From contig NZ_CP062698.1 in assembly GCF_018389385.1 (NCBI RefSeq), positions 3,294,667 to 3,318,666 of the forward strand: a DNA stretch of 24,000 nt, in the 5' to 3' direction. The notes beneath the pieces are model-generated. The model saw only the letters and a program-made list of their open reading frames with translations, did no database searches and had not been told where the DNA came from. The position numbers and the translations under genes are program-made. Shown here in pieces: positions 208 through 24,000 of the stretch. The stretch is from Anthocerotibacter panamensis C109 (GTDB lineage Bacteria; Cyanobacteriota; Cyanobacteriia; Gloeobacterales; Anthocerotibacteraceae). Each line of letters begins with the position of its first letter. Positions within the stretch are counted from its first letter, which is position 1.

Positions 208-303
208 GTGTTTGCGCTACTGGCCCGCTGGTTCCATAAATTTGTCTGTTTGCTGCTTCTGTTTATTTTTACGGGCAACCCCCTGACGGCAGTAGTCCAA
301 GCG
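208..303 (+). other. predicted Sec-type signal peptide of the Rhs protein
   Basis: N-terminus MFALLARWFHKFVCLLLLFIFTGNPLTAVVQA|AV has a basic n-region, a hydrophobic core and a VQA-A cleavage-like site. No PAAR, VgrG, LXG or TPS-type N-terminal domain recognised. Confidence 0.55.
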
Positions 304-7271: not shown

Positions 7272-8524
7272 TCACACTATCCCTGCTGTTTTTAAGTAGA
7301 CGTACCGTTTCAAGTTATAGCTCAGATTGAGCAAGCCCACTTTCGCAGCGATCCGTATCTGCCCCACGCCACGCAAGAGCTTCCCACCCATCTCATTTAC
7401 AAAACGACCAAACACATGTTCTACCCGTGCTCGGATTCGTGACTTCTCCCGATTCTCACTTTTTTGAGCTTCTGTCAATTCCCGATTTCGATAGCCCCGT
7501 TCATGGATCTTGCTATGAAAACCCATTTTAGCTAGCGCCCATTCTGTATCTGCACTGCGATAAGCACTGTCCGCCCACACGCTATCGCCTTCATTTTCTG
7601 CATCCAGGATGGCCCCTAACATTTGGGAGTCATGCACGGCGGCATCAGTCACCGCATAAACTCGAATAAAGCCGTATTCTGCATCGATATTTACATGGTT
7701 CTTGTAGCCAAAGTGCGATTCATCATTTTTTTTGGTCCAGCGGGCATCCCAGGGTCGTTTCATTCTCCGCGTTAAAGACTCAAATTCAAGGATGAGGGAT
7801 GTACCCCCGGATAAATAGCACTGACATAAATGACACAGCTTATTGCACGGTAAGTCTTGAAAACCTTGCCTGAAGATAATCCTAGCCAATTGAACTGACA
7901 TTTTTTCAAAACCCTGTCACCGCTTCATTTGGACTGTTTTCTCATCTAAATGAGAATGAAAAGACCCTGGCGGGCATCCACATCTTTTTGTTCTTTTTTT
8001 GATTCAGACCAACCTTCTGGAACTTGTCCAGCCTTGATTTGCTCATTCTCTAAACGTTTATTATGTTGCTTGGGCACAGGGATAAAACTAGCATCCACAA
8101 TCTGTCCACTCTTGGCTTGGTAGCCTTCCTCTACCAGATAGCTTTCAAAGCGCAAGTACAACGCTTCTATCAAACCTAACTGGGTTAACTGTTCTCGGAA
8201 TAAACCAATCGTCGTAGCGTCCGGGATTTGATCTTCTAGACCCAAATGCAAAAACTTCATAAAGGACAGGCGATCATGAACTTGGTATTCCAACTCAGCA
8301 TCGCTAATGTTATAGAGGCGTTGCAGTATTAGCATTTTAAATTTTAAAATTACGTCGATAGGCTTACGACCTGCATTACTTTTCCTGTCTTGAGCATAAA
8401 CTTGCTCCAGGATCGGGCGAAAATCCGACCAGGGAATCAGGGTATCTAACCGAACTAAAAAGCTTTTTCGTTGTTGCAATTGCTGATGGCGTTGTTCCCA
8501 ATCCCAAAACCCTTGCTGTCCCAT
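7272..8524 (-). pseudogene. IS5-family DDE transposase, split into two ORFs by a nested MITE
   Basis: The N-terminal ORF (likely ATG at 8524) reads MGQQGFWDWEQRH...NAGRKPIDVILKFKMLILQ...KDVDAR. The C-terminal ORF reads ...DARWTKKNDESHFGYKNH...ADSAYRS...RARVEHVFGRF. Deleting 7750-7979 (230 bp) fuses both in frame (KDVDARWTKKND) into about 340 codons. Confidence 0.85.
7750..7969. mobile_element. 220-bp MITE-like element nested in the IS5 transposase gene
   Basis: 18-bp terminal inverted repeats: CAGGGTCGTTTCATTCTC (7750-7767) versus the reverse complement of 7952-7969, CAGGGTCTTTTCATTCTC (17/18). Perfect 10-bp direct duplication GCGGGCATCC at 7740-7749 and 7970-7979. No credible coding capacity. 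Confidence 0.75.
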
Positions 8525-8795
8525 AATCAATTCCTTGGTTTCTCCAATTTTCTCATTTAGCAGCTCGCTAGGCAATTAATCGAGGTGCCCTATACATACT
8601 GTACAGTAAATAAACTATATTATTTCTCCCTCGCTCTATTAGACATTAAGTATTTAACTCTAATATTGTAGGGAAAGGTGCGTTTGGGCTTCCATAAGGA
8701 ATTAGCAATGGGTAGCCAAGTTCAATTCTACTCTACATAACCTATCAAGACGAAATCAATTTCTAGAGGTAACTCGGGCCTCGCTTAATGCGTAT

Positions 8796-9209: not shown

Positions 9210-10241
9210 TGTAGCGCTCTGACGATTCGCACCGATGCCAGTACGCCTCCCAACATCTACAATCTGACGATTGGCGGGACTACGATTAATGGCCCGTCGG
9301 GGGTGCGCTCGATGTCCACCAGCCTGACGGTGACGCCCTCGACCACGCCACCAAATACCCCAACCATCACCAGTGTGAGCAGCTTTAATGCCCAAGTGGG
9401 ACAGACAGTGACCCTCACGGGCAACAATCTGGGCAATGCCACGCAAGTGTGGTTTGGAGGAGTTCCAGCAGCGTTCACCCTCAATGTCTCGACCAATACA
9501 GTAACGGCGGCAGTGCCCCCGAATGCCCCCACGGCTCCAATCAGTGTGGTCACCCCGAGTGGGACAACGCAGACAGCGCAGAATTTTGTGCCTGTGCAGG
9601 TGGCTGCGGCTACGGGGCAGGCACAGTTCAATTTGGGTATAGCGGCTCAACAGCAGGATGAGCAGTTTATCAACTTCTTAAGGCAACGCTCCGTTGAGTA
9701 TGATAATCGGGTAGCGGGGCCAGCAGATTTATTTGACATAAACTACTACCTCCTTTTGAATAGGTTAAGAACTGTTCGCTCTATGCTTACTGGTAACCTT
9801 AAGGGGAGCAATATTGCAGTTGCATCAGCAAGTTTTAACGATCGAGCGCCACGTTTCTACATTGCATTGAGTGGTCAAAAGGATCTATCTACAGACCAGC
9901 TTGGAAAATTAGATATTGGTCCTGAAGAGTATGCAGGACTTGCAAAAATTGCTATCCGATATTTTAATGGAGGAATGGTTCCCAGGATAAATAGTAAAAC
10001 AGGAGAATTTAGGTTAGGTGAAAATGGCTCCATATTAATTCGAGAATCACAGTATGACTCAGAGCAAAAAATCCTTGAACAAGTTAGGATAGAGCTTTTA
10101 GCTGATCCAGCCTTAACTGGAACGGTTCGTATCCTAAGTGAGTATAAGTATTGTCCTGGTTGTTTGCGGAGCATTTCTAAGTTTGAAAAGGATTTTCCGC
10201 TACGTGTTAATCTTAAAGTTTATGACGCGGTAGGAAGATAA
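9210..10241 (+). pseudogene. orphan Rhs C-terminal cassette 2, 5'-truncated inside the Ig-like linker; TIG domain plus deaminase-like toxin domain
   Basis: Homology to the main gene begins abruptly at about 9211 (SALTIRTDASTPPNIYNLTIGG, compare 5452 onward), directly after an in-frame TAA. TIG copy at 9360-9593. Diverges from the D1 segment after AQFNLGIAAQQ (about 9654). The tail contains FYIALSGQ...YDSEQKILEQV-(x)-YKYCPGCLRSISKF. Confidence 0.7.
9360..9593 (+). repeat. IPT/TIG-like domain, copy 2
   Basis: PTITSVSSFNAQVGQTVTLTGNNLGNATQVWFGGVPAAFTLNVSTNTVTAAVPPNAPTAPISVVTPSGTTQTAQNFVP. Near-identical DNA to 5599-5832. Confidence 0.6.
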
Positions 10242-10958: not shown

Positions 10959-12191
10959 TTGCGTGGCGAAGCCATAGACCCTCTCGGCTTTGGGGGTGGC
11001 GACACCAACCTCTATCGCTATGTGGGTAATGCCCCCCATCTCGCGGTAGACCCCAGTGGACTCCAGCAAACAAAATCAAGTCCTACCCTCAACCCTAATC
11101 CCACCCCTAGCCGTGAAGTTATGCTCTCCGAAGTACCAGGGGCTACTACGGCTGGAGCCTGTGATTTTCTATTCAGTGCCGAGCCAGTACAGACAAATCT
11201 CACTACCTGTACCTGCGATTCATTTGATCGGTGCTTTGAGTGTCAGACAGAAGGCTTTTGCACTCAAGTTTGTGGACCAGGAACAATATTTAGCTGTGGG
11301 GGCGGGGTTCTTCCTCCAGGTGGCGGTGGGGGCGGCGGCGGAACGTTCCCGACTATCAGCAGTGTGAGCAGTTTCAGTGCCCAAGTGGGTCAGACGGTGA
11401 CACTCACGGGCAACAATTTGGGCAATGCCACGCAAGTACGGTTTGGGGGTATCCCCGCAGCGTTCACGGTCAATGCCGCGAATGGTCAAGTGACAGCAAC
11501 AGTGCCGCCGGGTGCATCAACGGGTCTTATCTGTGTGGTCACCCCGAGTGGGACAGCACAGACAGCGCAGAATTTTGTGCCTGTGCAGGTGGCTGCGGCC
11601 CTACGCCAAGCACAATCTGCTCTAGCGAATGTCGCTGACCAGCTCTTGCAGGGATTGACCAGCCGGGATTTCCTGGAGAGTGTGGCTAATGGGGCAGATA
11701 TTGCAGGGAATGCAGCAGGAGCCTTGGCACTTATCCTTGGCGCAGAAGGTACAGGTACAACACTCACGGGTGTTGGAGCGCTCATTGGGGTGCCAAGCTT
11801 GGCTGGAGCAGTGGGTGCAACTGGAGTATCTGTCATTGCCAAGGGGAGTGCAACTTTGATTAGGGGGTTATTGGAGCAGCAGTACTATGCGGCTAAGGCT
11901 AAGGTTGATATTTTGAAGCCTGGGGGAAATCCAATTGGTAGAGCAGGGAGTAGCCCTGAAATACGAGAACTAACGGGTGATCAGACGGATGCGTTAAACC
12001 TTTTTATGGAATTGATTGAAGGGGGTACTGAGGTTCCTACTCCAAATTTTAAGGGATTTCGTTTCAAAATTCCCGGTGACGGAACTGTACAGATCAGAGA
12101 TTTTGCATCCAAGAGTCCCAATACGAATGCTACAATAGACGTTAAGCTGAAAAGCGTTCCTGACATTGAAAAACTCAAGTTTAACCCCTAA
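10959..12191 (+). CDS. orphan Rhs C-terminal cassette 3 (no credible own start): core end, Cys-rich/poly-Gly linker, TIG, D2 hydrophobic segment, ~100-aa toxin
   Basis: In-frame homology starts upstream of the ORF-track TTG, at about 10926 (SPDLQRFISDSLRGEAIDPLGFGGGDTNLYRYVGNAPHLAVDPSGL). DPSGL at 11049-11063. Poly-Gly at 11319-11342. TIG at 11349-11582. LLEQQYYA at 11868-11891. Unique tail to 12188. Confidence 0.8.
   Translation: MRGEAIDPLGFGGGDTNLYRYVGNAPHLAVDPSGLQQTKSSPTLNPNPTPSREVMLSEVPGATTAGACDFLFSAEPVQTNLTTCTCDSFDRCFECQTEGFCTQVCGPGTIFSCGGGVLPPGGGGGGGGTFPTISSVSSFSAQVGQTVTLTGNNLGNATQVRFGGIPAAFTVNAANGQVTATVPPGASTGLICVVTPSGTAQTAQNFVPVQVAAALRQAQSALANVADQLLQGLTSRDFLESVANGADIAGNAAGALALILGAEGTGTTLTGVGALIGVPSLAGAVGATGVSVIAKGSATLIRGLLEQQYYAAKAKVDILKPGGNPIGRAGSSPEIRELTGDQTDALNLFMELIEGGTEVPTPNFKGFRFKIPGDGTVQIRDFASKSPNTNATIDVKLKSVPDIEKLKFNP
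11349..11582 (+). repeat. IPT/TIG-like domain, copy 3
   Basis: PTISSVSSFSAQVGQTVTLTGNNLGNATQVRFGGIPAAFTVNAANGQVTATVPPGASTGLICVVTPSGTAQTAQNFVP. Confidence 0.6.
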
Positions 12192-12643: not shown

Positions 12644-14272
12644 TTGCGTGGCGAAGCCATAGACCCCCTGGACTTTGGGGGTGGCGACACCAACCTCTAC
12701 CGCTATGTGGGTAATACCCCGCATCTCGCGGTGGACCCCAGTGGACTCCAGCAGAGAAAATTAAGTCCTACGCCTGCCCCCAGAAAACAAAGCAACATTA
12801 CCGCCCCTCCTGCTGCGACCAACGATAGTTGTGTGGCCTTTTTTGGCTCTGTTACTCCTTCCTCTGGCCTCAATGACCAACCAACTCTGGTAGACCCGCC
12901 TGCTACCAATATCACTATTAGCTGTACCTGTGACCCGCTTTGCTTTGACATCAGAATTGGTGTGGGCGGCCCTCCGCCCACGGGTTTACCCGGTCAGACC
13001 GTGGCTGCCGGGGGCTCGACTTCCTACGTGCCCTTCACCTACTTTTGCAATGCTTCCACCCCCTGCCTGCCCGAAGCCTATATTCAACTGTCCTTGAGTG
13101 GACAGCCCGCTGATTGGGTGCAAAGTGCTACCGCGATACCCGGAAGGACAACCTACAGTTTCAATCCACCCAATGTCTATCCTTCGCAGCAGCAAAGTAG
13201 CACACTGACGATCCGCACCGATGCCAGTACGCCTCCCAACATCTACAACCTGACGATTGGCGGGACTACGATTAATGGCCCGTCGGGGGTGCGCTCAATG
13301 CCCACCAGTCTGACGGTGACGCCTTCGACCACGCCCCCAAACACACCGAGCATCAGCACGGTGAGCAGCTTTAGTGCCCAAGTGGGTCAGACGGTGACGC
13401 TCACAGGCAACAATTTGGGCAGTGCCACGGAAGTATGGTTTGGCGGTGTCCCAGCCGCCTTCACCGCGAATGTCTCGACCAATCAAGTGACGGCGACCAT
13501 CCCGCCGAATGCCCCCACGGCTCCAATCAGTGTGGTCACGGCGAGTGGGACAACGCAGACAGCACAGAATTTTGTGCCTACGAATGTTCCTACTGCTCCG
13601 AGGCGAGCGCAGTTCAACTTGGGAGTTGCGGCAGGGCAATTACGCAATGCAATCGTTGACTTTCCTGGAGTTCGTGGGTTTGCTACATTCACCTCGGGAG
13701 CCTATGACTTTGCTTCATTTGGCCTTACCGCTGCATTACGTGGAGGGTTGAATAGCCTTACCCAGGTCAGTGACCCAATTAATACAAGCTCCGGTCTGTA
13801 TCGTGCAGGTCAAGTCGCTGGTCTAGCGGCATCGTTTGTATTAGGGACTGGTGAAGCAGGATTAATTGCTGAAGTTGAAGAAGGAGTATCGGGTATAGGT
13901 CGAGTAGCTGAAGTTGTAGGAGGGCGAACTCGACCTAGTTTTTATGTGACGCCGGGAGGTACCGTAGTACCCAGCGTTACTCCTGCTGGTATAGAAGTTT
14001 CAGCGGAGGCAGCTTTTCGTTTAGGAGAAGGAAGATTCAACGAAGCTTTGACTTTAGAGAATCTTGATGTCTTAATAGAAAGAGGAGAGAAGTTCATCGA
14101 AGATAATGGAAACTTAGTTCGTCGGCTACCTGCTTCAGGCGTAGGTGTACCTAGCAGGTCTGGGCGTTCTTTCATTGAAGCGATCCTTGATCCAATAGGG
14201 AGACGTATTATCACCATCATTCGCCGACAAAGACCGCTTCCCCCTGGGCGCTTTACACAGGTTAATCCATGA
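12644..14272 (+). CDS. orphan Rhs C-terminal cassette 4 (no credible own start): core end, Ig-like linker, TIG, ~215-aa unique C-terminal region
   Basis: Homology begins at 12634 with the same junction as cassette 3 (SDSLRGEAIDPLDFGGGDTNLYRYVGNTPHLAVDPSGL). DPSGL at 12734-12748. TIG at 13346-13579. Diverges after AQFNLGVAAGQ (about 13640) and has no EQQYYA motif. Confidence 0.8.
   Translation: MRGEAIDPLDFGGGDTNLYRYVGNTPHLAVDPSGLQQRKLSPTPAPRKQSNITAPPAATNDSCVAFFGSVTPSSGLNDQPTLVDPPATNITISCTCDPLCFDIRIGVGGPPPTGLPGQTVAAGGSTSYVPFTYFCNASTPCLPEAYIQLSLSGQPADWVQSATAIPGRTTYSFNPPNVYPSQQQSSTLTIRTDASTPPNIYNLTIGGTTINGPSGVRSMPTSLTVTPSTTPPNTPSISTVSSFSAQVGQTVTLTGNNLGSATEVWFGGVPAAFTANVSTNQVTATIPPNAPTAPISVVTASGTTQTAQNFVPTNVPTAPRRAQFNLGVAAGQLRNAIVDFPGVRGFATFTSGAYDFASFGLTAALRGGLNSLTQVSDPINTSSGLYRAGQVAGLAASFVLGTGEAGLIAEVEEGVSGIGRVAEVVGGRTRPSFYVTPGGTVVPSVTPAGIEVSAEAAFRLGEGRFNEALTLENLDVLIERGEKFIEDNGNLVRRLPASGVGVPSRSGRSFIEAILDPIGRRIITIIRRQRPLPPGRFTQVNP
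13346..13579 (+). repeat. IPT/TIG-like domain, copy 4
   Basis: PSISTVSSFSAQVGQTVTLTGNNLGSATEVWFGGVPAAFTANVSTNQVTATIPPNAPTAPISVVTASGTTQTAQNFVP. Confidence 0.6.
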
Positions 14273-14876: not shown

Positions 14877-16590
14877 AACAACAATTACTGGCTGCGGGGC
14901 CAGGCGCAAGGTCAGTTTATTCAACAATGGACGGTCAGTAATAGCAACTGGGCGGACCTTACCAGCGATGTGCCCCAACAATTGGCGAATGGTCGGGTAG
15001 ATGTTGTCTTCACCAATGACTATGCTGATTCAACGGCGGACCGTAATCTGCTTGTCGATACAGTAAATATCCATGGCAATGTTATTGCTGCACAAAGTAG
15101 TGCAGTCTATTACGATACGGGCGATCCTTTTGACGGAGTGTATGTGGGGTCAGGGGTCAACTTTGCCGGATGCCCTGTAGGGACAGGTGCATGTTTTCAA
15201 GGCGCTCTCCGATTCACTCCCGGCAGCACCAACAATCTGACCTTCACAGGGCGCGAAGACGATGGGACGGGACTCATCTACTACCGCGCCCGCTACTATT
15301 CTGCCGACCTGCAACGCTTTATCGCAGAAGACCCCCTCGGTTTTGGGGGTGGCGACACCAACCTCTATCGCTATGTGGGTAATGCCCCCCATCTCGCGGT
15401 AGACCCCAGTGGACTCCAGCAAACAAAATCAAGTCCTACCCTCAACCCTAATCCCGCCCCTAGCCGTGAATTTACCCTCGCCGAAGTACCAGGGGCTACT
15501 ACGGCTGGAGCCTGCGATTTTCTATTCAGTGCCGAGCCAGTACAGACAAATCTCACTACCTGTACCTGCGATTCATTTGGCAGGTGCTACGAGTGTCAGA
15601 TAGAAGGCTTTTGCACTCAGGTTTGTGGACCAGGAACAATATTTAGCTGTGGGGGCGGGGTTCTTCCTCCAGGTGGCGGTGGGGGCGGCGGCGGCGGTGG
15701 AACCCTCCCAAGTATCAGCGGGGTCAGCAGCTTCAGTGCGCAGGTAGGAACGGATATCACGATTTCGGGTAGTAACCTGAGCAATGCGACAGCAGTACGC
15801 TTCGGGAATGTCCCAGCTGCGTTCACCCTCAATGTCTCGACCAATGCAGTGACAGCGGCAGTGCCCCCGAATGCCCCCACGGCTCCTATCAGTGTGGTCA
15901 CCCCGAGTGGGACAACGCAGACAGCGCAGAACTTTGTGCCTGTGCAGGTGGCTACGGGCCCTACGCCAAGCACAATCTGCTCTAGCGAATGTCGCTGACC
16001 AGCTCTTGCAGGGATTGACCAGCCGAGATTTCCTGGAGAGTGTAGCTAATGGGGCAGATGCTACAGGGAATGCCCTTTACGGATTTTCTGTAATTGCTGG
16101 TGTTTTTGGAGCAGGTAGCTCATCTACAGGGGGCGGTGCCATCGTTGGCGTACCTGCTTTGGCGATAGCAGGTGGCGCTGTAGTGGCTGGGGCAGGGCTC
16201 AAGTCTAGTGCTGCGAATATCAGAGGGATCTTGGAGCAGCAGTACTATGCGGCTGGCGGCAAGGCAGCAAATGAAGTTGGAAGGCTTAGAGTAGAAAAAG
16301 TAGTAGAATTAACAGGTGGAACAGCTTCTGGAGAAAAAGTTTCAGTGAAAACACTTGGAAGCACAGACCTGGATGTGATTGGCCCTAGCGGAGAACTCAT
16401 TTCTGTTGGTGGTCCTGCTAAAGCAGGTAACCTGGGAAATTTTGTTAGAGAATTGAGGATTTACCAAGCTATTGCATCACAAAGAGGAGTTTACGTTAAA
16501 GCATACTTAGCAGAAGGGACGCCTCAATCAGCAATCGATAAGGCAATACGTGAATTGGGAGAAAAAAATGTATTTATCTTTACTCCATGA
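14877..16590 (+). pseudogene. orphan Rhs C-terminal cassette 5, 5'-truncated and frameshifted: CBM-like domain fragment, complete core end, Cys-rich/poly-Gly linker, TIG, D2 segment, toxin
   Basis: Open frame from 14877, after TAA TAG. RVDVVFTNDYADSTADRNLLVDTVNIHG is followed by NNLTFTGREDDGTGLIYYRARYYSADLQRFIAEDPLGFGGGD...DPSGL (15402-15416). Poly-Gly at 15672-15701. TIG at 15708-15941. An extra G in ACGGGCCC (15956-15958; the paralog at 20426-20431 has ACGGCCC) shifts the frame. The product continues in the ORF 15871-16590 frame (ALRQAQSALANVADQ...ILEQQYYA at 16228-16251). Confidence 0.75.
15708..15941 (+). repeat. IPT/TIG-like domain, copy 5 (most diverged)
   Basis: PSISGVSSFSAQVGTDITISGSNLSNATAVRFGNVPAAFTLNVSTNAVTAAVPPNAPTAPISVVTPSGTTQTAQNFVP. 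Confidence 0.6.
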
Positions 16591-18035: not shown

Positions 18036-18149
18036 CTCAATGTCTCGACCAATGCAGTGACGGCGACCATCCCCCCGAATGCCCCCACGGCTCCAATCAG
18101 TGTGGTCACCCCGAGTGGGACGGCACAGACAGCGCAGAATTTTATGCCT
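18036..18149 (+). repeat. IPT/TIG-like domain, copy 6 (C-terminal half only)
   Basis: LNVSTNAVTATIPPNAPTAPISVVTPSGTAQTAQNFMP. The N-terminal half of the domain is absent. Confidence 0.6.
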
Positions 18150-18797
18150 GTGCAGGTGGCTGCGGCTACGGGGCAAGCGCAGTTTGATTTGCGCATAGCG
18201 GCTCAACAGCTCCAGCAATTCTACGAAAATAACCAAGATGCAATCCAGGGCACGTTTAGCGCCTTGGGACAGATTTTGAACGGTGGACTCACCGGAATCC
18301 TAGGTCTGATTGAACTCAGTGGAGGTGCGGCACTACTGAACTACGCTAACTTTGAAGATGGCTCCCTTAGTGGTGCGGCAGCGGCAGCAGCAGCTACAGA
18401 CTTATTAGCGGTTGGCTCTGCTACAGTCGTTGCTGGCAGTGCCGTGGTGAATCAGGGTGTCAAGGGGTTGTTCGAGCAGCAGTTCTATGCGGCTTTGCAA
18501 GGAGGTGGGCAAAGTTCCATAAAGACTTTTGGACAGGATTTAAAAAATATTCGCGAGGTAGCAACTGGACGGCTCAAGGGTTTTTCTAGGGGAAACACAA
18601 CCCTTCCGAGAGGGGATCAAGGTGCTCGAGATCTATTTGAAAAGCTTACTGGAACCCCCCCTACAGGAGATTTTGACCGTGCTATTCTACAAGATGGGCG
18701 AGAGATTGTATTCAGAGCAATCAGTAGATCTGGACCAGCTAAAATTGAAGTGGTTGATCCCCTGCAAAGTTTTTTGGAAAAAATTTCTTTTCCTTAG
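18036..18797 (+). pseudogene. orphan Rhs C-terminal cassette 6, 5'-truncated inside the TIG domain; D1 segment plus ~95-aa toxin
   Basis: Homology starts at LNVSTNAVTATIPPNAPTAPISVV (18036), 6 codons after an in-frame TAA. D1 copy at 18177-18491 with LFEQQFYA at 18468-18491. Diverges from the main gene after QGGGQ (18513). Confidence 0.7.
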
Positions 18798-19248: not shown

Positions 19249-19440
19249 TTAGGGAATCAAGGAAGGAACGGCCAAACCCTTATGCACGGTTGCTTGTAGC
19301 GCTTGACTGAAAAACGTCACCACCGACCGCCCCTGCCTGTAGCACGTCTGCACTACCCCGAGCAAAGCTGCGGTTTCTTTAAATCGCTCCATCGAGCGCG
19401 ACCCCCCACTGACCTTACGCTTGGTCACCGCTAAACGCAA
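19249..19440 (-). pseudogene. C-terminal fragment of an IS66-family-like transposase (IS remnant)
   Basis: LRLAVTKRKVSGGSRSMERFKETAALLGVVQTCYRQGRSVVTFF matches the conserved R-x-x-V-x-x-RK-x-SGG-x-RS...A-x-L-x-S/V-x-x-T-C tail remembered from IS66-type (ISBst12-like) transposases. The N-terminal ~90% is missing. The fragment ends at about 19446, exactly where Rhs homology of cassette 7 begins. Confidence 0.45.
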
Positions 19441-21094
19441 CGACCACTACTACAGCCCAGAACTCCAGCGCTTTATCGCAGAAGACCCCTTGGGTTTTGG
19501 TGGGGGCGACACCAATCTCTACCGCTATGTGGGTAATACCCCGCATCTCGCGGTAGACCCCAGTGGACTCCAGCAAACAAAATTAAGTCCTAAGCCTACC
19601 CCCAGAAAACAAAGCAATGTCACCACCCAAAGCAGCATTACCGCCCCTGGTCCGACGACCAACAATTCTTGTGGTGTGGTTGTGTTCGGACCCGTTACCG
19701 CCTCCGCCGCACAGGGTAACCAAGCCATTGGGACAGACCCCCCACCTTCGCCTAACGACACTATTTGCGGATTTAGTATAACCATTGGGGTTGGCGGCGG
19801 CGGCGGTTTCGTCGTCGCACTACCTGGTCAGACCGTCGCTGCTGGGGGTTCAGTTTCCTACGTTCCCTTCACCTACTTTTGCAATGCTTCCACCCCCTGC
19901 CTGCCCGAGGCTTATATTCAACTGTCTCTGAGTGGACAGCCCGCCGATTGGGTGCAAAGTGCCACCGCGATACCCGGAAGGACAACCTACAGTTTCAATC
20001 CACCCAATGTCTATCCTTCGCAGCAGCAGAGTAGCACCCTGACGATACGCACCGATGCCAGTACGCCGCCGAATACCTACAATCTGACCATCGGTGGGAC
20101 TACCATCAATGGACCGTCGGGGGTGCGCCCGATGCCCACCAGTCTGACGGTGACGCCCCCGACCACGCCCCCCAATACCCCAACCATCACCAGTGTGAGC
20201 AGTTTCAGTGCCCAAGTGGGTCAGACGGTGACCCTCACGGGCAACAATCTAGGCAATGCCACCCAAGTATGGTTTGGAGGAGTTCCAGCAGCATTCACCC
20301 TCAATGTCTCGACCAATCAAGTGACAGCAACAGTGCCCCCGAATGCCCCCACGGCTCCAATCAGTGTGGTCACGGCGAGTGGGACAACGCAGACAGCGCA
20401 GAATTTTGTGCCTGTGCAGGTGGCTACGGCCCTACGCCAAGCACAATCTGCTCTAGCGAATGTCGCTGACCAGCTCTTGCAGGGATTGACCAGCCGAGAT
20501 TTCCTGGAGAGTGTAGCTAATGGGGCAGATGCTACAGGGAATGCAGCAGGAGCCTTGGCACTTATTCTTGGCGCAGAAGGTACAGGTACAACACTCACGG
20601 GTGTTGGAGCGCTCATTGGGGTACCAAGCTTGGCTGGAGCAGTGGGTGCAGCCGGAGTATCTGTCATTGCTAAGGGGAGCGCAACTTTGATTCGAGGGTT
20701 GCTGGAGCAGCAGTTCTATGCGATAGAAGGCCCCTTGGAAAATGCTAACTTTGCGCAGAAGAGCATTAATAAGGGAGAATTATTTAGTGAGGAAGGACAA
20801 GCTATCTATAGCAAGTTAGCAGGCAGACCAATTAAAACAGTTAACGATCTTGTCGAGGCAATTAAAGGTGGGGGCATTAATCCTGCCGATATTAAAATTG
20901 ACTATATCATTCGCGAAGGAAATACCCTTTTATTGAACACTCGCTCTGTAGCAGCCCTTGAGCGTGCAGGGGTTCCCCGTAGCGCCTTCTCTGCTATAAA
21001 TAGAACTGGAGATCCTTTCTTTGAAAAGCTGCTTGATGCTCAATTGCGCCGCAATGGGCTGACAAGCCAAGGTACTCCAAAGCTGCTCAGGTAA
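19421..21094 (+). CDS. orphan Rhs C-terminal cassette 7 (5' end cut by the IS remnant): core end, Ig-like linker, TIG, D2 segment, ParB-like-looking toxin
   Basis: Rhs homology from YYSPELQRFIAEDPLGFGGGD (19447). DPSGL at 19556-19570. 19469-19992 is near-identical to 4888-5411. TIG at 20180-20413. LLEQQFYA at 20699-20722. The unique tail reads IEGPLENANFAQKSINKGELFSEEG...IKIDYIIREGNTLLLNTRSVAALERAGVPR... Confidence 0.8.
   Translation: MVTAKRNDHYYSPELQRFIAEDPLGFGGGDTNLYRYVGNTPHLAVDPSGLQQTKLSPKPTPRKQSNVTTQSSITAPGPTTNNSCGVVVFGPVTASAAQGNQAIGTDPPPSPNDTICGFSITIGVGGGGGFVVALPGQTVAAGGSVSYVPFTYFCNASTPCLPEAYIQLSLSGQPADWVQSATAIPGRTTYSFNPPNVYPSQQQSSTLTIRTDASTPPNTYNLTIGGTTINGPSGVRPMPTSLTVTPPTTPPNTPTITSVSSFSAQVGQTVTLTGNNLGNATQVWFGGVPAAFTLNVSTNQVTATVPPNAPTAPISVVTASGTTQTAQNFVPVQVATALRQAQSALANVADQLLQGLTSRDFLESVANGADATGNAAGALALILGAEGTGTTLTGVGALIGVPSLAGAVGAAGVSVIAKGSATLIRGLLEQQFYAIEGPLENANFAQKSINKGELFSEEGQAIYSKLAGRPIKTVNDLVEAIKGGGINPADIKIDYIIREGNTLLLNTRSVAALERAGVPRSAFSAINRTGDPFFEKLLDAQLRRNGLTSQGTPKLLR
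20180..20413 (+). repeat. IPT/TIG-like domain, copy 7
   Basis: PTITSVSSFSAQVGQTVTLTGNNLGNATQVWFGGVPAAFTLNVSTNQVTATVPPNAPTAPISVVTASGTTQTAQNFVP. Confidence 0.6.
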
Positions 21095-21100
21095 GCGCCC

Positions 21101-21481
21101 ATGGAAACACAGATAGTCTACACAATTCCCAATACAGCTCTCGATTGCTTAAATGCTCAATTTATATATGAGGAAACAGACTTGATCCTCAAGTTGGAGT
21201 ACGAAGATGAAGATGGTATGGTGCGGTCCTATCACATTCGGTTTATTCATGCGCAATTGTTTCGATTTGAAAATGAAATGCACTGTATTTCCATCACAGC
21301 AGGAGCCTATGATGGGGTAGTTGAATTAGTTGATTCGGCTTGGGCTATGGAGATCAATTCCTTTGAAAATGAATATAACCGTCACAGTCCCTGGAGTAAA
21401 AGACATTTTTGCATATATATCAGTAGCACAGGACAGCTAAATATCATTGCAGACAGTTTCACTGTTGAGGTTGTAAAATGA
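21101..21481 (+). CDS. putative immunity protein for cassette 7
   Basis: Starts 6 nt after the toxin stop. 126 aa, AT-rich. The pattern ...HIRFIHAQLFRFENE...VVELVDSAWAMEI...RHFCIYISSTGQLNIIADSFTV resembles common small Rhs/CDI immunity proteins. Confidence 0.6.
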   Translation: METQIVYTIPNTALDCLNAQFIYEETDLILKLEYEDEDGMVRSYHIRFIHAQLFRFENEMHCISITAGAYDGVVELVDSAWAMEINSFENEYNRHSPWSKRHFCIYISSTGQLNIIADSFTVEVVK

Positions 21482-22041
21482 CAGCAGAAGAAATAATTCA
21501 GTTAAGCAAGACTATCTCTCATGCTTTACGTCACGAACCTTGGCTCTACGAGTTAGAAATTGACAACGAAGGATGGGTACTAGTCGAGACGTTACTCAGT
21601 TCTTTGCGTGCAGAGAGAACTGAATGGTCATCTCTGGGTGTAGCTGACTTAGAAAAGTTATTAACATTCTTTGACAAAAAACGGTTTGAGCTAAAGAATG
21701 AGAAAATTCGTGCTCTTTATGGTCATTCTATCCCCAAGAAACTACTGAAGCAGCCTGCCCTACCACCAATAACTTTGTATCATGGAACAGCGGTCGAGTC
21801 AGCGGCATCAATAAAAATTTATGGTTTACGGCCCATGGGCCGTCAGTACGTACATATGTCAGTGGAGGTAGAAACAGCGAGAGAAGTTGGTAGGCGAAAA
21901 TCCAAGTCGTCAATTGTTCTAACGATCTTGGCACAAAATGCATACAACAATGGTTTATCATTCTATCCGGCTGGGGAATTCGTCTGGCTAGCTGACTACG
22001 TGCTATCAAACTACATTCAGTTTACTGGGCACCTTGATTAA
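21478..22041 (+). CDS. kptA: RNA 2'-phosphotransferase (KptA/Tpt1 family); extreme C-terminus replaced by a MITE end
   Basis: LSKTISHALRHEPWLYELEIDNEGWVLVETLL, IRALYGHSIP, LYHGTAVESAASIKIYGLRPMGRQYVHMS and VWLADYV match the Tpt1/KptA layout (SKxLSxxLRH, GW, xGHS, YHGT, GLxxMxRxHVHLS). ATGA overlap with the preceding immunity gene. The last codons GHLD-stop are encoded by the MITE terminus (22027 onward). Confidence 0.8.
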   Translation: MTAEEIIQLSKTISHALRHEPWLYELEIDNEGWVLVETLLSSLRAERTEWSSLGVADLEKLLTFFDKKRFELKNEKIRALYGHSIPKKLLKQPALPPITLYHGTAVESAASIKIYGLRPMGRQYVHMSVEVETAREVGRRKSKSSIVLTILAQNAYNNGLSFYPAGEFVWLADYVLSNYIQFTGHLD

Positions 22042-22127: not shown

Positions 22128-22588
22128 AGAAGGATGGCTCCTGGTTCGCAGTTGGGCAGCTCGCTCCTAGATCAAAAAAGGCGACGGGGTACAGCCTGGA
22201 GGTCGAGGATGACCATACATATTTTGTTGGAGATTCTGGCGCGTGGGTGCATAATGAGTGTCTTGCTGCAAAGGGGGCAAGTGAGCTTTCCTTCGGTCGT
22301 AAGTTGGACTTCCTTTTCAACAAGGGAATTGACCAATCCAACGCCTACAACGCTGCGCGCGCCGCAGGTAATGCTGAACGAATCGGTATTGCCGATACAG
22401 CAGCGAATCGCGCCGAAGTTGCGAGGCTATTCAATCAGGCCTATCGAGATCCTTCTTCTATTGTTGAGCCGGGGAAGGTTCTCGGCAGCAACCTCCGAGA
22501 GTTCTTCCTTCCCGGCGTTACCGGGACTGGCTCAAAGATCCAGTTCGTTGAGAGGGGTGGACAGGTGATCACCATCATTGCCAAGTAA
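22128..22588 (+). pseudogene. orphan cassette of a second toxin type: C-terminal fragment of a Hint domain plus ~105-aa toxin domain
   Basis: Immediately after the MITE, KDGSWFAVGQLAPRSKKATGYSLEVEDDHTYFVGDSGAWVHNECLAAKG is paralogous to 23529-23674. The unique tail reads ASELSFGRKLDFLFNKGIDQSNAYNAARAAGNAERIGIADTAANRAEV...GSKIQFVERGGQVITIIAK. Confidence 0.7.
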
Positions 22589-22598
22589 GAAGATTGAT

Positions 22599-23081
22599 AT
22601 GGAATTTATCTCAGTGTCCTGGACATCTGTCGAGTCAAAGAATGCCTTGAGCAACTTTTTAGCCAAAGAAGGTGCCACGAGCGAACTGGCGACAGCAGAT
22701 CCAAATACATGGGGCTTCTTCCCGCTGCCGAATGGTAAGAAGCTTGTGGTTGGCTATGCGAATTTGGGCTTGACGCCAGTGGCTACCGTGGTGAACGGCC
22801 ACTTGCTCATCGGTATCAATGAAATCCTTGCTGGCTTTGATCTGAACACCCTACAGAGAACGTTCATATATCGCATGCCATCCGTCTTTCACGAATTCGT
22901 ATCGCTCAAGGATCCGGTCATCGTTCGCGACGAAGTGGGGTTCATTTGCATTTCAGCTACAGGAGTGGAGAGATGGGCGCTCTTGACGAACGGGCCAATC
23001 AATCAGTTCACAATCGAAGGTGCGTTCATCCGTGGAGTGACCATTGACGATGAGCCGTTCAAGTTCGCCATTCCTTCATAA
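22599..23081 (+). CDS. putative immunity protein for the Hint-type orphan toxin
   Basis: ATG at 22599, 10 nt after the toxin stop, is preferred over the TTG at 22578. 160 aa. Unlike the Rhs-array immunity genes, it is not AT-rich. Confidence 0.5.
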   Translation: MEFISVSWTSVESKNALSNFLAKEGATSELATADPNTWGFFPLPNGKKLVVGYANLGLTPVATVVNGHLLIGINEILAGFDLNTLQRTFIYRMPSVFHEFVSLKDPVIVRDEVGFICISATGVERWALLTNGPINQFTIEGAFIRGVTIDDEPFKFAIPS

Positions 23082-24000
23082 TTCTTTGCTGCAAAGGGGG
23101 TAGCAGCCGATGCCCAGTTCGCGCAGAAGACCTAAGCTGCGGAGTACGGTTAGTCTCACGCTTGGGACGGGGCGGGCGCTCTGTCCGTCGCTTTGAGGCG
23201 AGTGTTCAGGAGGTGCGCACAGTCGCCAATGGTCTGGGTTGCTCGTTCGTGGCAGGTACTCCAGTTCTGGCTGAGGGTGGACAGCAGCCCATCGAGAAGC
23301 TCAAGCCGGATGATAAAGTCCTGGCAAGAGATGAAGTGACAGGTGCACAGAACTATCAACGGGTCCTCCAAACCTTTGCCACGCCCAATGACCCGCTCTA
23401 TGACCTGGAACTAGTCAGCGCAACCGGGAAGCGAGAAGTACTCGGAGTAACGGGCAATCATCCCTTCTGGGTCAAGGACAAGGGCTGGACAGAGACCGAC
23501 CTACTCAAGCCGGGGATGCAAGTCGCGGGCAAAGATGGCTCCTGGCTGATGGTTGGGAAGTTCGTGCCTAGAGCGGAACGGGCGACGGGGTACAACCTGG
23601 AGGTTGAGGATGATCACACGTACTTTGTGGGGGATTCCGGGGCGTGGGTACATAATGAATGTCTTGCCGCAAAGACAGCAGAGACGGTTGCGGCTGATGC
23701 AGCGGCGGCAGGAGGTAGAGGGCCAAGCTTTATTGCGGCTGCGGACGGTAGCGTCTTTCCAGTTCCGAGAGGAGCAACAGGGCCACTCCCGACACGAGCT
23801 CCTGGAATGCAGTTTACCGGCGGCTCTGGCGGATACGGCCTTGACCCGCGAGTAACTGGTGTTCGTTTCATGGACGCCAACGCAAACCAAGGAGCGCGAG
23901 CGGTTTACATGAATCAAGCCGGGCAGACGGTGAATCCGTTCACCGGTCGTACTGTGCCATACAGCGATCCAACCGCGCACTTCTACTTCAACCCGAACCC
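23054..24000 (+). CDS. Hint-domain polymorphic toxin fragment (no start identified; open at the 3' window edge), missed by the ORF track
   Basis: Frame is open from 23054 to 24000. Complete mini-Hint at 23240-23656, then LAAKTAETVAADAAAAGGRGPSFIAAADGSVFPVPRG...GGYGLDPRVTGVRFMDANANQGARAVYMNQAGQTVNPFTGRTVPYSDPTAHFYFNPN, continuing beyond the window. Confidence 0.75.
23083..23133 (+). other. relic of a third Hint/toxin junction (FAAKGVAADAQFAQKT-stop)
   Basis: TTTGCTGCAAAGGGGG at 23085-23100 repeats CTTGCTGCAAAGGGGG at 22262-22277. The encoded AAKGVAADA resembles AAKTAETVAADA at 23666 onward. It is followed by a stop after 17 codons. Confidence 0.4.
23240..23656 (+). other. mini-Hint (bacterial intein-like / pre-toxin HINT) domain, 139 aa
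   Basis: N-terminal CSFVAGTPVLAEGGQQPIEKLKPDDKVLARDE and C-terminal GYNLEVEDDHTYFVGDSGAWVHN are the canonical Hint block A and block F/G signatures (Cys1 ... HTYFV ... VHN). Confidence 0.8.

What the first reader, a model, noticed from the sequence alone, without database searches (positions are those of the whole stretch)
21101..22041. KptA/Tpt1 RNA 2'-phosphotransferase translationally coupled to a toxin-immunity gene: candidate repair-type second immunity factor
The kptA-like ORF overlaps the stop of the cassette-7 immunity gene by ATGA (21478-21481). This is the same coupling used between toxins and immunity genes throughout this array. It is the last gene of the cassette before the MITE seam.

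Tpt1/KptA enzymes use NAD+ to remove RNA 2'-phosphates through an ADP-ribosylated intermediate, and they have an ADP-ribosyltransferase fold. That is established knowledge. An enzyme of this kind in an immunity position suggests one of three things:
- enzymatic reversal of an RNA or nucleotide modification made by the adjacent toxin;
- an auxiliary toxin/effector gene;
- a hitch-hiking housekeeping gene.

I cannot distinguish these from sequence alone. I am not aware of the first option being described for Rhs cassettes.
Basis: inference. Interest (0 to 1): 0.7.

Follow-up and report, generated by a model that had tools for sequence, protein, structure and literature searches.

The report
KptA repair enzyme in toxin cassette
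An RNA 2'-phosphate-removing enzyme (KptA/Tpt1) is a conserved third gene of a widespread bacterial toxin-immunity cassette, which suggests that the toxin, which resembles ParB/sulfiredoxin-type ATP-using enzymes, poisons cells by phosphorylating RNA and that KptA undoes the damage.

Summary
Window 21101-21481 encodes a 126-aa immunity-type protein. Its stop overlaps (ATGA) the start of a 187-aa KptA/Tpt1 (PF01885, E 1.8e-34; 55% identical to the solved C. thermocellum Tpt1; catalytic Arg-His-Arg-Arg tetrad intact).

KptA is not a hitch-hiker. The toxin C-terminal domain (20726-21094) defines a family with no Pfam model. In 58 of 69 assessable genomes from at least eight phyla, KptA lies within about 1.2 kb downstream of this toxin. 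The toxin sits on Rhs, CdiA, PT-HINT and eCIS scaffolds. Three gene orders occur: Tox-Imm-KptA, Tox-Imm-KptA convergent, and Tox-KptA-Imm.

The tetrad is conserved in 57-58 of 58 linked KptAs. A sister toxin subfamily (DNTR motif) with an unrelated immunity gene also carries KptA in about 55% of loci.

The toxin model (pLDDT 92) most resembles ParB/sulfiredoxin-fold NTP-binding phosphotransferases.

Best reading, inferred and not shown: the toxin is an ATP-dependent RNA 2'-OH kinase, the small protein is the binding immunity, and KptA is a catalytic repair immunity. I found no description of this in the searchable literature. It bears directly on the open question of what bacterial KptA is for.

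The parts
19421..20725 (+). Orphan Rhs C-terminal fragment of cassette 7: the part shared with the main rhs gene and other cassettes. It contains the Rhs-associated core remnant and a TIG domain and ends at the LEQQFYA junction.
   Evidence: TIGR03696 E 7.9e-11 and PF20144. Direct repeats D1, D3-D6, D8, D10 and D11 link it to 4860-6017 and to other cassettes.
20726..21094 (+). Toxin C-terminal domain (about 122 aa). It belongs to a family with no Pfam model and has a predicted ParB/sulfiredoxin-like fold. Conserved motifs: N-F-A-Q, F-S, P-I-D-x-I-x-R-D-G-N, L-N-T-R-S, R-T-G.
   Evidence: No Pfam or PDB sequence hit. AF2 pLDDT 91.9. Foldseek top hits are KorB, Srx, ParB, Noc and SerK at prob up to 0.90 and E 0.06-0.5. 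1252 cluster representatives, always C-terminal. hhalign to DNTR-type toxins gives prob 95%, E 2e-8. Median pI 9.5.
21101..21481 (+). Cognate immunity-type protein (126 aa, acidic). It belongs to an uncharacterised family found in 76 of the 78 sources scanned (77 fetched loci plus the window).
   Evidence: No Pfam or PDB match. Median pI 4.9. The AF2 model is of low confidence.
21478..21481 (+). ATGA overlap of the immunity stop codon and the KptA start codon (translational coupling).
   Evidence: The same ATGA overlap occurs in the CdiA-borne copy, L001 3101-3104.
21478..22041 (+). KptA/Tpt1 NAD+-dependent RNA 2'-phosphotransferase (187 aa). Catalytic residues R18, H19, R69 and R122 and the H102-G103-T104 motif are present.
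   Evidence: PF01885 E 1.8e-34. Alignment to 6E3A. Tetrad conservation in 58 linked homologues.
22130..22273 (+). Cassette boundary: a repeat shared with 23531-23674 that encodes a degenerate pretoxin-HINT C-end. It is the head of the next orphan toxin (22247-22588) and its immunity gene (22578-23081).

Best explanation
Cassette 7 is a three-gene polymorphic-toxin module.

1. **Toxin.** The Rhs-delivered C-terminal domain (20726-21094) is a ParB/sulfiredoxin-fold, ATP-using enzyme. I infer that it transfers phosphate to ribose 2'-OH groups of RNA in the target cell and so blocks translation or other RNA function.
2. **Immunity protein.** The acidic 126-aa protein is the conventional immunity protein. 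It binds and occludes its cognate toxin.
3. **KptA.** KptA is a catalytic second immunity factor. [quoted passage not shown] This repairs damage done by toxin molecules that escape the binding immunity.

**Shown here:** gene anatomy, the KptA family assignment and its intact active site, the conserved linkage, and the fold resemblance.

**Inferred:** the toxin's kinase activity, RNA as the target, and KptA's protective role.
For: **Linkage with this toxin family.**
- KptA lies within about 1.2 kb downstream of this toxin domain in 58 of 69 assessable species genomes. These span Bacillota, Actinomycetota, Bacteroidota, Planctomycetota, Pseudomonadota, Myxococcota, Acidobacteriota and Binatia.
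- No other KptA occurs anywhere in the flanks of these loci.
- The same linkage holds in 4 independent metagenomic loci and in RefSeq plasmids of Burkholderia ambifaria MC40-6 and Duffyella gerundensis, where the gene is annotated 'RNA 2'-phosphotransferase'.

**Linkage survives rearrangement and scaffold swapping.**
- Gene orders: Tox-Imm-KptA (34 loci), Tox-Imm-KptA convergent (10), Tox-KptA-Imm (13, Bacteroidota).
- Scaffolds: Rhs, CdiA/FHA, PT-HINT, eCIS.

**Two KptA clades serve one toxin family.**
- The convergent and same-strand KptAs are 39% identical to each other but 53-61% identical within each group. The toxins are about 58% identical throughout.
- This points to selection for the enzyme activity rather than for one particular protein surface.

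**Active site.** The catalytic tetrad is kept in 58/58, 58/58, 58/58 and 57/58 linked KptAs.

**Sister toxin subfamily.** A subfamily with the motifs RF[ST]Q...DVV...DNTR is related to the window family (hhalign prob 95%). It uses an unrelated small immunity gene yet also carries KptA in 35-36 of 64 assessable metagenomic loci. It also carries KptA after giant RHS toxins in three sampled loci (L087-L089, one of them Paraburkholderia), and a related DNRR-type orphan toxin in an RHS locus of Ralstonia does too.

**Toxin fold and chemistry.**
- Foldseek hits are almost exclusively ParB/Srx-fold NTP-binding proteins, including the ATP-dependent phosphotransferases sulfiredoxin and SerK.
- The invariant L-N-T-R at a helix N-terminus parallels the G-N-H-R phosphate-binding motif of the ATP-hydrolysing ParB-fold CDI toxin ToxB. 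The cellular mechanism of ToxB is unresolved (bioRxiv 10.64898/2026.05.05.722872).

**Charge.** A basic toxin and an acidic immunity protein fit a nucleic-acid target.

**Established knowledge.** Tpt1/KptA removes internal RNA 2'-PO4, and bacteria have no known pathway that makes such RNA (PMC6097658).
Against: - No biochemical data exist for this toxin family.
- The ParB/Srx fold assignment rests on individually weak Foldseek scores (E 0.06-0.5). Sequence-profile searches against the PDB and hhalign against human Srx were negative.
- The one characterised ParB-fold toxin (ToxB) showed only ATP-to-ADP hydrolysis in vitro and has no KptA partner.
- 11 of 69 assessable loci have toxin plus immunity without KptA. 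In the sister subfamily about 45% lack it. KptA is therefore dispensable where the binding immunity is present.
- KptA has other in-vitro activities (5'-phosphate ADP-ribosylation), so another substrate is possible.
- I could not read Aravind et al. 2015 or Burroughs & Aravind 2016 (not held).
Confidence: 0.55

Rival explanations
1. The toxin is an RNase (or another RNA-breaking enzyme) that leaves 2',3'-cyclic phosphate or 2'-phosphate ends. KptA is an end-healing enzyme that prepares the broken RNA for religation by a host ligase.
For: In phage and bacterial RNA-repair operons KptA is proposed to clear 2'-phosphates left after cyclic-phosphate opening (PMC9503650). Zhang et al. 2012 guessed a nuclease role for ParB-fold toxins. 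The charge pattern fits a nucleic-acid target.
Against: None of the roughly 95 KptA-linked cassettes contains a ligase, a 2H or cyclic phosphodiesterase, or a polynucleotide kinase next to KptA. The ParB/Srx fold has no established metal-independent RNase member. KptA alone cannot reseal a break.
Confidence: 0.12
2. KptA protects enzymatically but on a different substrate. It may remove a phosphate from a non-RNA molecule phosphorylated by the toxin (a nucleotide, cofactor or protein-linked group). Alternatively it may ADP-ribosylate a 5'-phosphate end, or the toxin's product, to block its effect.
For: Shuman and colleagues raise non-RNA substrates for bacterial Tpt1 homologues (PMC6097658). 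Tpt1 enzymes ADP-ribosylate 5'-phosphorylated RNA and DNA in vitro (PMC8120803). ToxB intoxication gives nucleoid compaction rather than an obvious translation defect.
Against: The window KptA is 55% identical to CthTpt1, which is classified and was studied as an RNA 2'-phosphotransferase (the activity is cited from literature knowledge and was not checked here). It keeps the winged-helix RNA-binding lobe and all RNA-phosphate-contacting arginines. No macrodomain, ARH or NADAR partner is present to complete a capping and decapping cycle.
Confidence: 0.15
3. KptA is an auxiliary toxin or effector, or a factor that the toxin needs for activation or export in the producer cell. On this view it is not a protective factor.
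For: KptA has an ADP-ribosyltransferase fold. Tpt1-like exotoxins have been speculated about (PMC11833690).
Against: KptA is a stand-alone protein of 180-200 aa with no PAAR, LXG, Rhs or other trafficking domain. It always lies on the immunity side of the toxin. Pseudomonas sp. CR3202 has tandem small-ORF-plus-KptA pairs, in the position where orphan immunity genes usually lie, with no ParB-like toxin gene in the fetched flank. The closest solved relative is a bona fide repair-type phosphotransferase.
Confidence: 0.05
4. KptA is a housekeeping gene that merely happens to lie next to the cassette in this genome.
For: One sampled close homologue (P0035) sits among metabolic genes: metK, ppk, Uma2. 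11 toxin loci lack KptA.
Against: - Linkage holds in 58 of 69 genomes across phyla and in three gene orders.
- Co-transfer occurs between Rhs and CdiA scaffolds with similar divergence of all three genes: 62%, 54% and 59% identity between the window and L001.
- KptA lies inside the low-GC variable cassette, between the shared Rhs junction and the next cassette.
Confidence: 0.02

Closest known systems
Tpt1/KptA RNA 2'-phosphotransferases (yeast Tpt1, E. coli KptA, C. thermocellum Tpt1, PDB 6E3A)
   Same: Full-length PF01885 match, 55% identity to CthTpt1, intact Arg-His-Arg-Arg tetrad and HGT NAD+ motif. Presumably the same NAD+-dependent 2'-phosphate removal.
   Different: The genomic role differs. 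Here the gene is a fixed component of polymorphic toxin-immunity cassettes. It is not part of tRNA splicing (fungi) or of ligase-containing RNA-repair operons. Scores fall below the NCBIfam equivalog cut-offs (159 against 231 bits).
Enzymatic ('repair-type') immunity or antitoxin proteins: Tri1 against the T6SS ADP-ribosyltransferase Tre1, DarG against DarT, small alarmone hydrolases against toxSAS
   Same: An enzyme encoded next to a toxin that would chemically reverse the toxin's modification rather than, or in addition to, binding the toxin. It would protect against non-cognate family members.
   Different: Here the reversing enzyme is separate from, and additional to, a dedicated binding immunity protein (three genes). 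It is a phosphotransferase to NAD+, not a hydrolase. The modification it would reverse (RNA 2'-phosphate) has not been described for any toxin. The comparison with Tri1, DarG and the hydrolases rests on my knowledge of the literature. Tre1 is listed only in PMC8120803.
Tox-ParBL1 and Tox-ParB polymorphic toxin domains (Zhang et al. 2012, PMC3482391)
   Same: C-terminal toxin tip on Rhs, FHA, HINT and other scaffolds. Predicted ParB fold. An invariant N-T-R that fits the published [NT][RT][RT] motif, equivalent to DGHHR/GxxR. Profile-level homology to RF[ST]Q...DNTR toxins.
   Different: - The position of the conserved Ser/Thr in RF[ST]Q is Ala here (NFAQ).
- The immunity family is new (not SUKH or Imm44).
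- Zhang et al. proposed a nuclease activity and did not mention KptA (0 occurrences in the first 300,000 of about 358,000 characters held).
- The archetype NGK_2271 could not be compared directly.
ToxB, the ParB-CTPase-fold ATPase toxin of CdiA proteins (Kaljevic et al., bioRxiv 2026, 10.64898/2026.05.05.722872)
   Same: A ParB-fold C-terminal toxin delivered by a contact-dependent system. The phosphate-binding motif has Asn and Arg in equivalent spacing (GNHR against LNTR). A small immunity protein is encoded downstream. ATP is the likely nucleotide.
   Different: ToxB is detectable with PF02195, is rare (52 species) and has a two-gene toxin-immunity organisation. The window family has no Pfam hit, has about 1250 cluster representatives and usually carries KptA. 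The mechanism of ToxB is unresolved.
KptA-containing RNA repair operons of bacteria and phages (KptA with RNA ligase, 2H phosphoesterase, Thg1)
   Same: KptA used in a conflict context to restore damaged RNA.
   Different: No ligase, 2H, kinase-phosphatase or nucleotidyltransferase partner is present. The only partners are a toxin tip and a small immunity protein.

Membership tests
Tpt1/KptA (PF01885, PTS_2-RNA) | Full-length match to the family profile above the curated threshold | tested here: met
   119.8 bits against a cut-off of 26; residues 6-173 cover profile positions 3-176 of 177.
Tpt1/KptA (PF01885, PTS_2-RNA) | Catalytic tetrad Arg-His-Arg-Arg (CthTpt1 R18, H19, R68, R121; E. coli R21, H22, R69, R125) | tested here: met
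   Window R18, H19, R69 and R122 align to the CthTpt1 residues. In 58 aligned sequences (57 toxin-linked KptAs plus the CthTpt1 reference) they are conserved 58/58, 58/58, 58/58 and 57/58. Residue roles come from PMC6097658 and PMC8120803.
Tpt1/KptA (PF01885, PTS_2-RNA) | NAD+-binding H-G-T / H-H-h motif of the ART-like lobe | tested here: met
   Y101-H102-G103-T104 and V125-H126-M127-S128 are present. H, G and T are conserved in 56-57 of 58.
Tpt1/KptA (PF01885, PTS_2-RNA) | NCBIfam equivalog-level score (PRK00819 subfamilies) | tested here: not met
   Best score 159.5 bits against a cut-off of 231 (NF002013). The protein is a family member but falls outside the curated equivalog groups.
Tpt1/KptA (PF01885, PTS_2-RNA) | NAD+-dependent removal of RNA 2'-phosphate | not testable with these tools
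   Needs an enzyme assay or yeast tpt1-delta complementation.
Rhs orphan toxin-immunity cassette (polymorphic toxin system) | Fragment homologous to the 3' end of a full-length rhs gene, then a variable toxin tip after a conserved junction, followed by an immunity gene | tested here: met
   Main rhs gene 208-6537 (RHS repeats). Repeat families link 4860-6017 with 19441-20725. Rhs_assc_core match. The variable tip and small acidic ORF follow.
ParB/sulfiredoxin fold (toxin domain) | Three-dimensional fold resembles ParB N-domain / Srx / SerK | tested here: inconclusive
Tox-ParBL1 (Zhang et al. 2012) | Motif [NT][RT][RT] equivalent to DGHHR, at the start of the helix after the beta-hairpin | tested here: met
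   L71-N72-T73-R74-S75 is invariant in the family and lies at the start of helix 73-81, after strands 58-64 and 67-70.
Tox-ParBL1 (Zhang et al. 2012) | Conserved N-terminal Ser/Thr | tested here: inconclusive
   In DNTR-type relatives the S/T lies in RF[ST]Q. The aligned window motif is NFAQ, with Ala. A different Ser (S22 in F-S) is nearly invariant.
Tox-ParBL1 (Zhang et al. 2012) | Sequence-profile homology to family members | tested here: inconclusive
   hhalign gives prob 95.3%, E 2.1e-8 to four RF[ST]Q...DN[TR]R toxins. I equate those with Tox-ParBL1 only by motif. The archetype NGK_2271 was not available.
ToxB / canonical ParB N-terminal domain (PF02195) | Detectable match to PF02195 and a GxxR P-motif | tested here: not met
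   No Pfam hit for 11 family members even at E up to 1. The motif is LNTR, not GxxR.
Repair-type (enzymatic) immunity | Conserved genomic coupling of the reversing enzyme with the toxin, independent of the binding-immunity family | tested here: met
   58 of 69 genome loci. A sister toxin subfamily with an unrelated immunity gene carries KptA in 35-36 of 64 loci. Two KptA clades are involved.
Repair-type (enzymatic) immunity | The enzyme reverses the toxin's chemical product and protects cells | not testable with these tools
   Needs toxicity and rescue assays and in-vitro assays.
KptA-containing RNA repair operon | Co-encoded RNA ligase and/or 2H phosphoesterase, kinase-phosphatase or Thg1 | tested here: not met
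   No such gene occurs between the toxin and the next cassette in the window. None was seen in the downstream ORFs that were inspected or in the gene calls with Pfam labels.

The most novel reading that the evidence does not exclude
ParB-like (ParBL1-type) polymorphic toxins are ATP-dependent RNA 2'-OH kinases, a toxin chemistry not yet described. A large clade of bacterial KptA/Tpt1 enzymes exists to reverse that lesion. This would identify the first natural source of internal RNA 2'-phosphate in bacteria and a physiological role for bacterial KptA. It would also suggest the missing co-substrate for the recently reported ParB-fold ATPase toxin ToxB.
Probability: 0.45. Interest if true: 0.92.

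Novelty: new variant of a known kind. Interest (0 to 1): 0.8.

Why it matters
**An open question about KptA.** Bacterial KptA/Tpt1 has been an enzyme without a known substrate since 1998. [quoted passage not shown] This cassette supplies a concrete and widespread candidate source: a secreted toxin that is always encoded next to KptA.

**An activity for ParB-fold toxins.** The cassette suggests a testable activity, RNA 2'-phosphorylation, for a large uncharacterised toxin family of about 1250 cluster representatives. It extends to the wider ParB-fold toxins, whose mechanism is explicitly unresolved in a 2026 preprint.

**A third gene in the module.** The usual two-gene toxin-immunity picture gains a conserved catalytic third component. 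KptA could then confer cross-protection against non-cognate toxins of this class, which matters for how immunity to interbacterial weapons evolves.

**Models are available.** Cultured strains carry the module, for example Burkholderia ambifaria MC40-6 plasmid pBMC401 and Duffyella gerundensis.

Tried and rejected
**Searches that found nothing.**
- Pfam and NCBIfam gave nothing for the toxin tip or the immunity protein.
- Sequence-profile searches of the PDB with the toxin (best hits beta-lactamase and SecA at E above 0.1; noise) and with the immunity family (no hits).
- hhalign of the toxin profile against human sulfiredoxin (sequence verified against 7LJ1) found no relationship. The ParB/Srx link therefore rests on fold and motif only.
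- The small genes beside KptA in the sister subfamily carry an LVPFARR.DCDD.AC motif. I read this as SUKH-like, but Pfam does not confirm it.
- The promoter and terminator scan was at or below shuffle expectation, with no terminators. No Rfam families or tRNAs are present in the window.

- AF2 of the immunity protein with the only two admissible sequences gave pLDDT 56. That is too poor for a fold search, so none was run.
It was repeated with two sequences.

**Literature.**
- Nine full-text searches found no paper that links KptA/Tpt1 with ParB-like toxins or with immunity to polymorphic toxins.
- Aravind et al. 2015 (PMC6126934) and Burroughs & Aravind 2016 (PMC5062991) are not held. A prior mention there cannot be excluded.

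**Considered and rejected.**
- The 'MITE' reading of the downstream repeat: it encodes a HINT remnant.
Full report
**1. The observation**

The window is from the cyanobacterium Anthocerotibacter panamensis. The source names appear on the identical proteins P0001 and P0003.

It holds a full-length rhs gene (208-6537; RHS repeats, FG-GAP, TIG) with an ATGA-coupled immunity gene. An IS element follows, and then an array of orphan Rhs C-terminal cassettes.

Cassette 7 consists of:
- ORF 19421-21094. It shares 88-98% identical repeats with the main gene up to the LEQQFYA junction at 20671-20725.
- A 126-aa ORF at 21101-21481.
- A 187-aa ORF at 21478-22041 that starts inside the stop of the former (ATGA), with a GAGG motif 8 nt upstream.

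The 187-aa protein is a complete Tpt1/KptA:
- PF01885 at 119.8 bits, E 1.8e-34.
- It aligns end to end with the solved C. thermocellum Tpt1 (6E3A, E 1.7e-52).
- It keeps R18, H19, R69 and R122, which match the catalytic tetrad R18/H19/R68/R121, and the HGT motif.

Two details need correction.
- ATGA coupling joins toxin and immunity in three cassettes only. In cassette 7 the toxin and immunity genes are 6 nt apart.
- The 'MITE seam' is a 144-nt repeat (22130-22273, also at 23531-23674). It encodes a degenerate pretoxin-HINT C-end, which is the head of the next cassette.

The toxin tip, immunity gene and kptA share a low GC content (39-45%), against 56% for the Rhs core.

**2. Does KptA travel with the toxin?**

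A direct search with the 126-aa protein among 5.8 billion proteins found only itself and one homologue (54% identity). That homologue lies on a 3.8-kb contig whose upstream gene is a CdiA/FHA-type protein. It has a VENN-like NEVLNN motif and the same toxin tip. The homologue is followed by a KptA (59% identity), again with an ATGA overlap.

Homologues of the toxin tip on other metagenomic contigs are likewise followed by a small ORF and a KptA.

I then scanned one genome per species (GTDB) with the toxin alignment. This gave 70 loci, which I searched with HMMs for toxin, immunity and KptA.

| Arrangement | Loci |
|---|---|
| Tox-Imm-KptA, same strand | 34 |
| Tox-Imm-KptA, convergent (Pseudomonadota, Myxococcota) | 10 |
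| Tox-KptA-Imm (Bacteroidota; the Imm is a divergent 164-aa member of the same family, and in one of the 13 loci, L050, it lies on the opposite strand) | 13 |
| Tox-KptA without Imm | 1 |
| Total with KptA within about 1.2 kb downstream | 58 of 69 assessable |
| No KptA (10 Tox-Imm only; one, L057, has the toxin domain with neither Imm nor KptA) | 11 |

Further points from this census:
- No second KptA occurs anywhere in the roughly 0.6 Mb of flanking DNA.
- The toxin tip is carried by Rhs, CdiA/FHA, PT-HINT and eCIS-core scaffolds. It is always C-terminal in 1252 cluster representatives.
- Pairwise identities of toxin, immunity and KptA are correlated across 40 complete triads (toxin against KptA: Spearman 0.31, Mantel p = 0.001).
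- RefSeq-annotated examples exist in Burkholderia ambifaria MC40-6 plasmid pBMC401 (FHA protein, hypothetical protein, 'RNA 2'-phosphotransferase') and in a Duffyella gerundensis plasmid.

The hitch-hiking explanation is refuted.

**3. Is the enzyme activity what is selected?**

- In the 58 aligned sequences (57 full-length linked KptAs plus the CthTpt1 reference) the tetrad is conserved 58/58, 58/58, 58/58 and 57/58. The HGT and GHS motifs are almost as well conserved.
- KptAs in the convergent arrangement form a separate clade. They are 39% identical to the same-strand clade, against 53-61% within each clade. The toxins they accompany are no more divergent than toxins within a group, at about 58%. 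Either two KptA lineages were recruited or one diverged strongly. In both cases the constant element is the catalytic machinery.
- Seven close homologues of the window KptA were sampled on long contigs. Five sit directly after a giant toxin gene plus a small ORF. Four of these are RHS loci; the fifth follows an 8086-aa protein with no Pfam label.
- In three of them (L087-L089) the toxin tip reads RF[ST]Q...(I/V)DVV...DNTR. In Ralstonia (L079) the KptA follows an orphan toxin whose tip carries the related DNRR variant and lacks the DVV segment. This sister family is homologous to the window toxin (hhalign prob 95.3%, E 2.1e-8).
- In those loci the small ORF is unrelated to the 126-aa family (no imm3 hit). 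In L087-L089 it carries an LVPFARR.DCDD.AC motif.
- A metagenome scan with that sister family found KptA about 400 nt after the toxin in 35-36 of 64 assessable contigs, including human-gut contigs.

KptA is therefore tied to the toxin class, not to one immunity family. That is the expected pattern for an enzyme that reverses the toxin's chemistry.

**4. What is the toxin?**

- It has no Pfam, NCBIfam or PDB sequence match.
- An AlphaFold model built from ten family members is confident (pLDDT 91.9).
- Foldseek against the PDB returns almost exclusively ParB/sulfiredoxin-fold proteins: KorB, A. thaliana and human Srx, ParB, Noc, Spo0J and serine kinase SerK. The scores are individually weak (prob up to 0.90, E 0.06-0.6).
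- The invariant L-N-T-R-S sits at the N-terminus of the helix that follows a beta-hairpin (P-I-D-x-I-x-R-D-G-N-x-L). This is the position of the DGHHR/GxxR phosphate-binding motif of ParB proteins.
- The motif fits the [NT][RT][RT] signature that Zhang et al. 2012 gave for 'Tox-ParBL1'.
- A 2026 preprint shows that a different ParB-fold CDI toxin, ToxB (motif GNHR), binds ATP and hydrolyses it slowly. It is blocked by an immunity protein that occludes the pocket. Its mode of killing is unresolved, and the authors consider a missing cellular co-substrate.
- Characterised non-segregation members of this fold, Srx and SerK, are ATP-dependent phosphotransferases.
- The toxin family is basic (median pI 9.5) and its immunity family acidic (median pI 4.9), as is usual for nucleic-acid-directed toxins.

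**5. Mechanism proposed**

Three facts lead to the most economical model. The toxin fold performs phosphoryl transfer from NTPs. The partner enzyme has one well-established reaction, the removal of RNA 2'-phosphate to NAD+. The cassettes contain no ligase or end-healing genes.

In this model the toxin phosphorylates RNA 2'-hydroxyls in the target cell. The small acidic protein blocks its cognate toxin by binding. KptA erases the lesion catalytically.

Shown here:
- the gene anatomy;
- the KptA family assignment and its intact active site;
- the conserved linkage;
- the resemblance of the toxin to the ParB/Srx fold.

Inferred:
- the kinase activity;
- RNA as the substrate;
- protection by KptA.

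KptA is absent from 16% of loci in the window's toxin family and from about 45% in the sister subfamily. The binding immunity is therefore sufficient on its own, and KptA is an added layer. It could also be supplied from elsewhere in the genome, which I could not test. I put this model at about 0.55.

The main rivals are:
- end-healing after an RNase toxin (0.12; there are no ligase or 2H partners);
- another substrate or ADP-ribosyl capping (0.15);
- an auxiliary toxin or activator (0.05);
- chance adjacency (0.02).

**6. Comparison with what is known, and novelty**

KptA here is a genuine family member. All sequence-level defining features are met; only the NCBIfam equivalog cut-offs are missed.

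The toxin works like, and is probably a branch of, the ParB-like toxins. Membership in Tox-ParBL1 is only partly testable: the motif is met, the N-terminal Ser/Thr is not at the aligned position, and the archetype is unavailable. It is not a PF02195-detectable ToxB.

Enzymatic immunity as a concept is known (Tri1, DarG, alarmone hydrolases). New here are the enzyme, the three-gene architecture with a separate binding immunity, and the implied lesion.

Nine full-text searches found nothing that links KptA/Tpt1 to ParB-like toxins or to polymorphic-toxin immunity. Zhang et al. 2012 does not mention KptA in the part of the text that is held. Two Aravind-lab papers that might mention it are not held.

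Shuman and colleagues state that bacteria have no known route to internal RNA 2'-PO4. This module offers one and makes it testable in cultured strains.

**7. Verdict**

- The finding is a new variant of a known kind (a toxin-immunity cassette with a catalytic repair immunity).
- There is a substantial chance (about 0.45) that it reveals a new toxin chemistry and the long-sought role of bacterial KptA.

Noticed in passing
window 22130-22273 and 23531-23674: A 144-nt direct repeat (81% identical) lies after KptA. It encodes a degenerate pretoxin-HINT C-terminal motif (YSLEVEDDHTYFVGDSGAWVHNEC) with an in-frame stop upstream. The next orphan toxin (22247-22588) and its overlapping immunity ORF (22578-23081) follow. 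The array therefore mixes Rhs-junction and HINT-junction cassettes.
   Followed up: partly
window 7272-8575 (- strand): An IS element lies between the main rhs-immunity pair and the orphan array. Its transposase is split into two 209-aa ORFs (DUF772 N-part at 7946-8575, DDE_Tnp_1 C-part at 7272-7901), which suggests a frameshifted or programmed-frameshift IS5/IS1182-type transposase.
   Followed up: no
window 9303-10241: An orphan cassette whose toxin tip is a BURPS668_1122-family deaminase (PF14424, E 1.6e-8), preceded by a TIG domain. The other cassettes in the array (10959-12191, 12644-14272, 15871-16590, 18057-18797) have toxin tips with no Pfam match.
   Followed up: no
L078 (Pseudomonas sp. 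CR3202, JBHZGN010000001.1) 1913-4561: Two tandem, near-identical copies of a [150-aa small ORF + KptA] pair lie downstream of a LysM-containing toxin whose C-end looks like a minimal nucleotidyltransferase. No ParB-like toxin is present in the fetched flank. They look like orphan immunity-plus-repair modules kept without the toxin.
   Followed up: partly
L003 4830-5740; L083 (B. ambifaria pBMC401) 3408-4353: In Pseudomonadota the KptA gene is convergent with the immunity gene and abuts or overlaps its 3' end. The overlap is up to about 88 nt by gene calls in L003, and there is a 1-nt gap in B. ambifaria. Such tail-to-tail overlap could give antisense or excludon-type cross-regulation.
   Followed up: no
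L013, L022, L024, L068, L076: In five of the 58 linked loci the KptA reading frame is split into two adjacent ORFs. This is either a frameshift error in the MAGs or real decay of the repair gene while the toxin and immunity genes stay intact.
   Followed up: no
L115, L117, L124, L157, L161 (human gut metagenome contigs): The sister DNTR-type ParB-like toxin occurs in human-gut metagenome assemblies. On three of these five contigs (L115, L117, L124) a small ORF and KptA follow it. The module is therefore not confined to environmental bacteria.
   Followed up: no
L057 (Roseofilum halophilum) 6007-6801: This is the only other cyanobacterial locus found. Its toxin domain is not terminal: the ORF continues about 160 aa into a Gly-rich, membrane-like tail. 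Neither the immunity family nor KptA follows.
   Followed up: no
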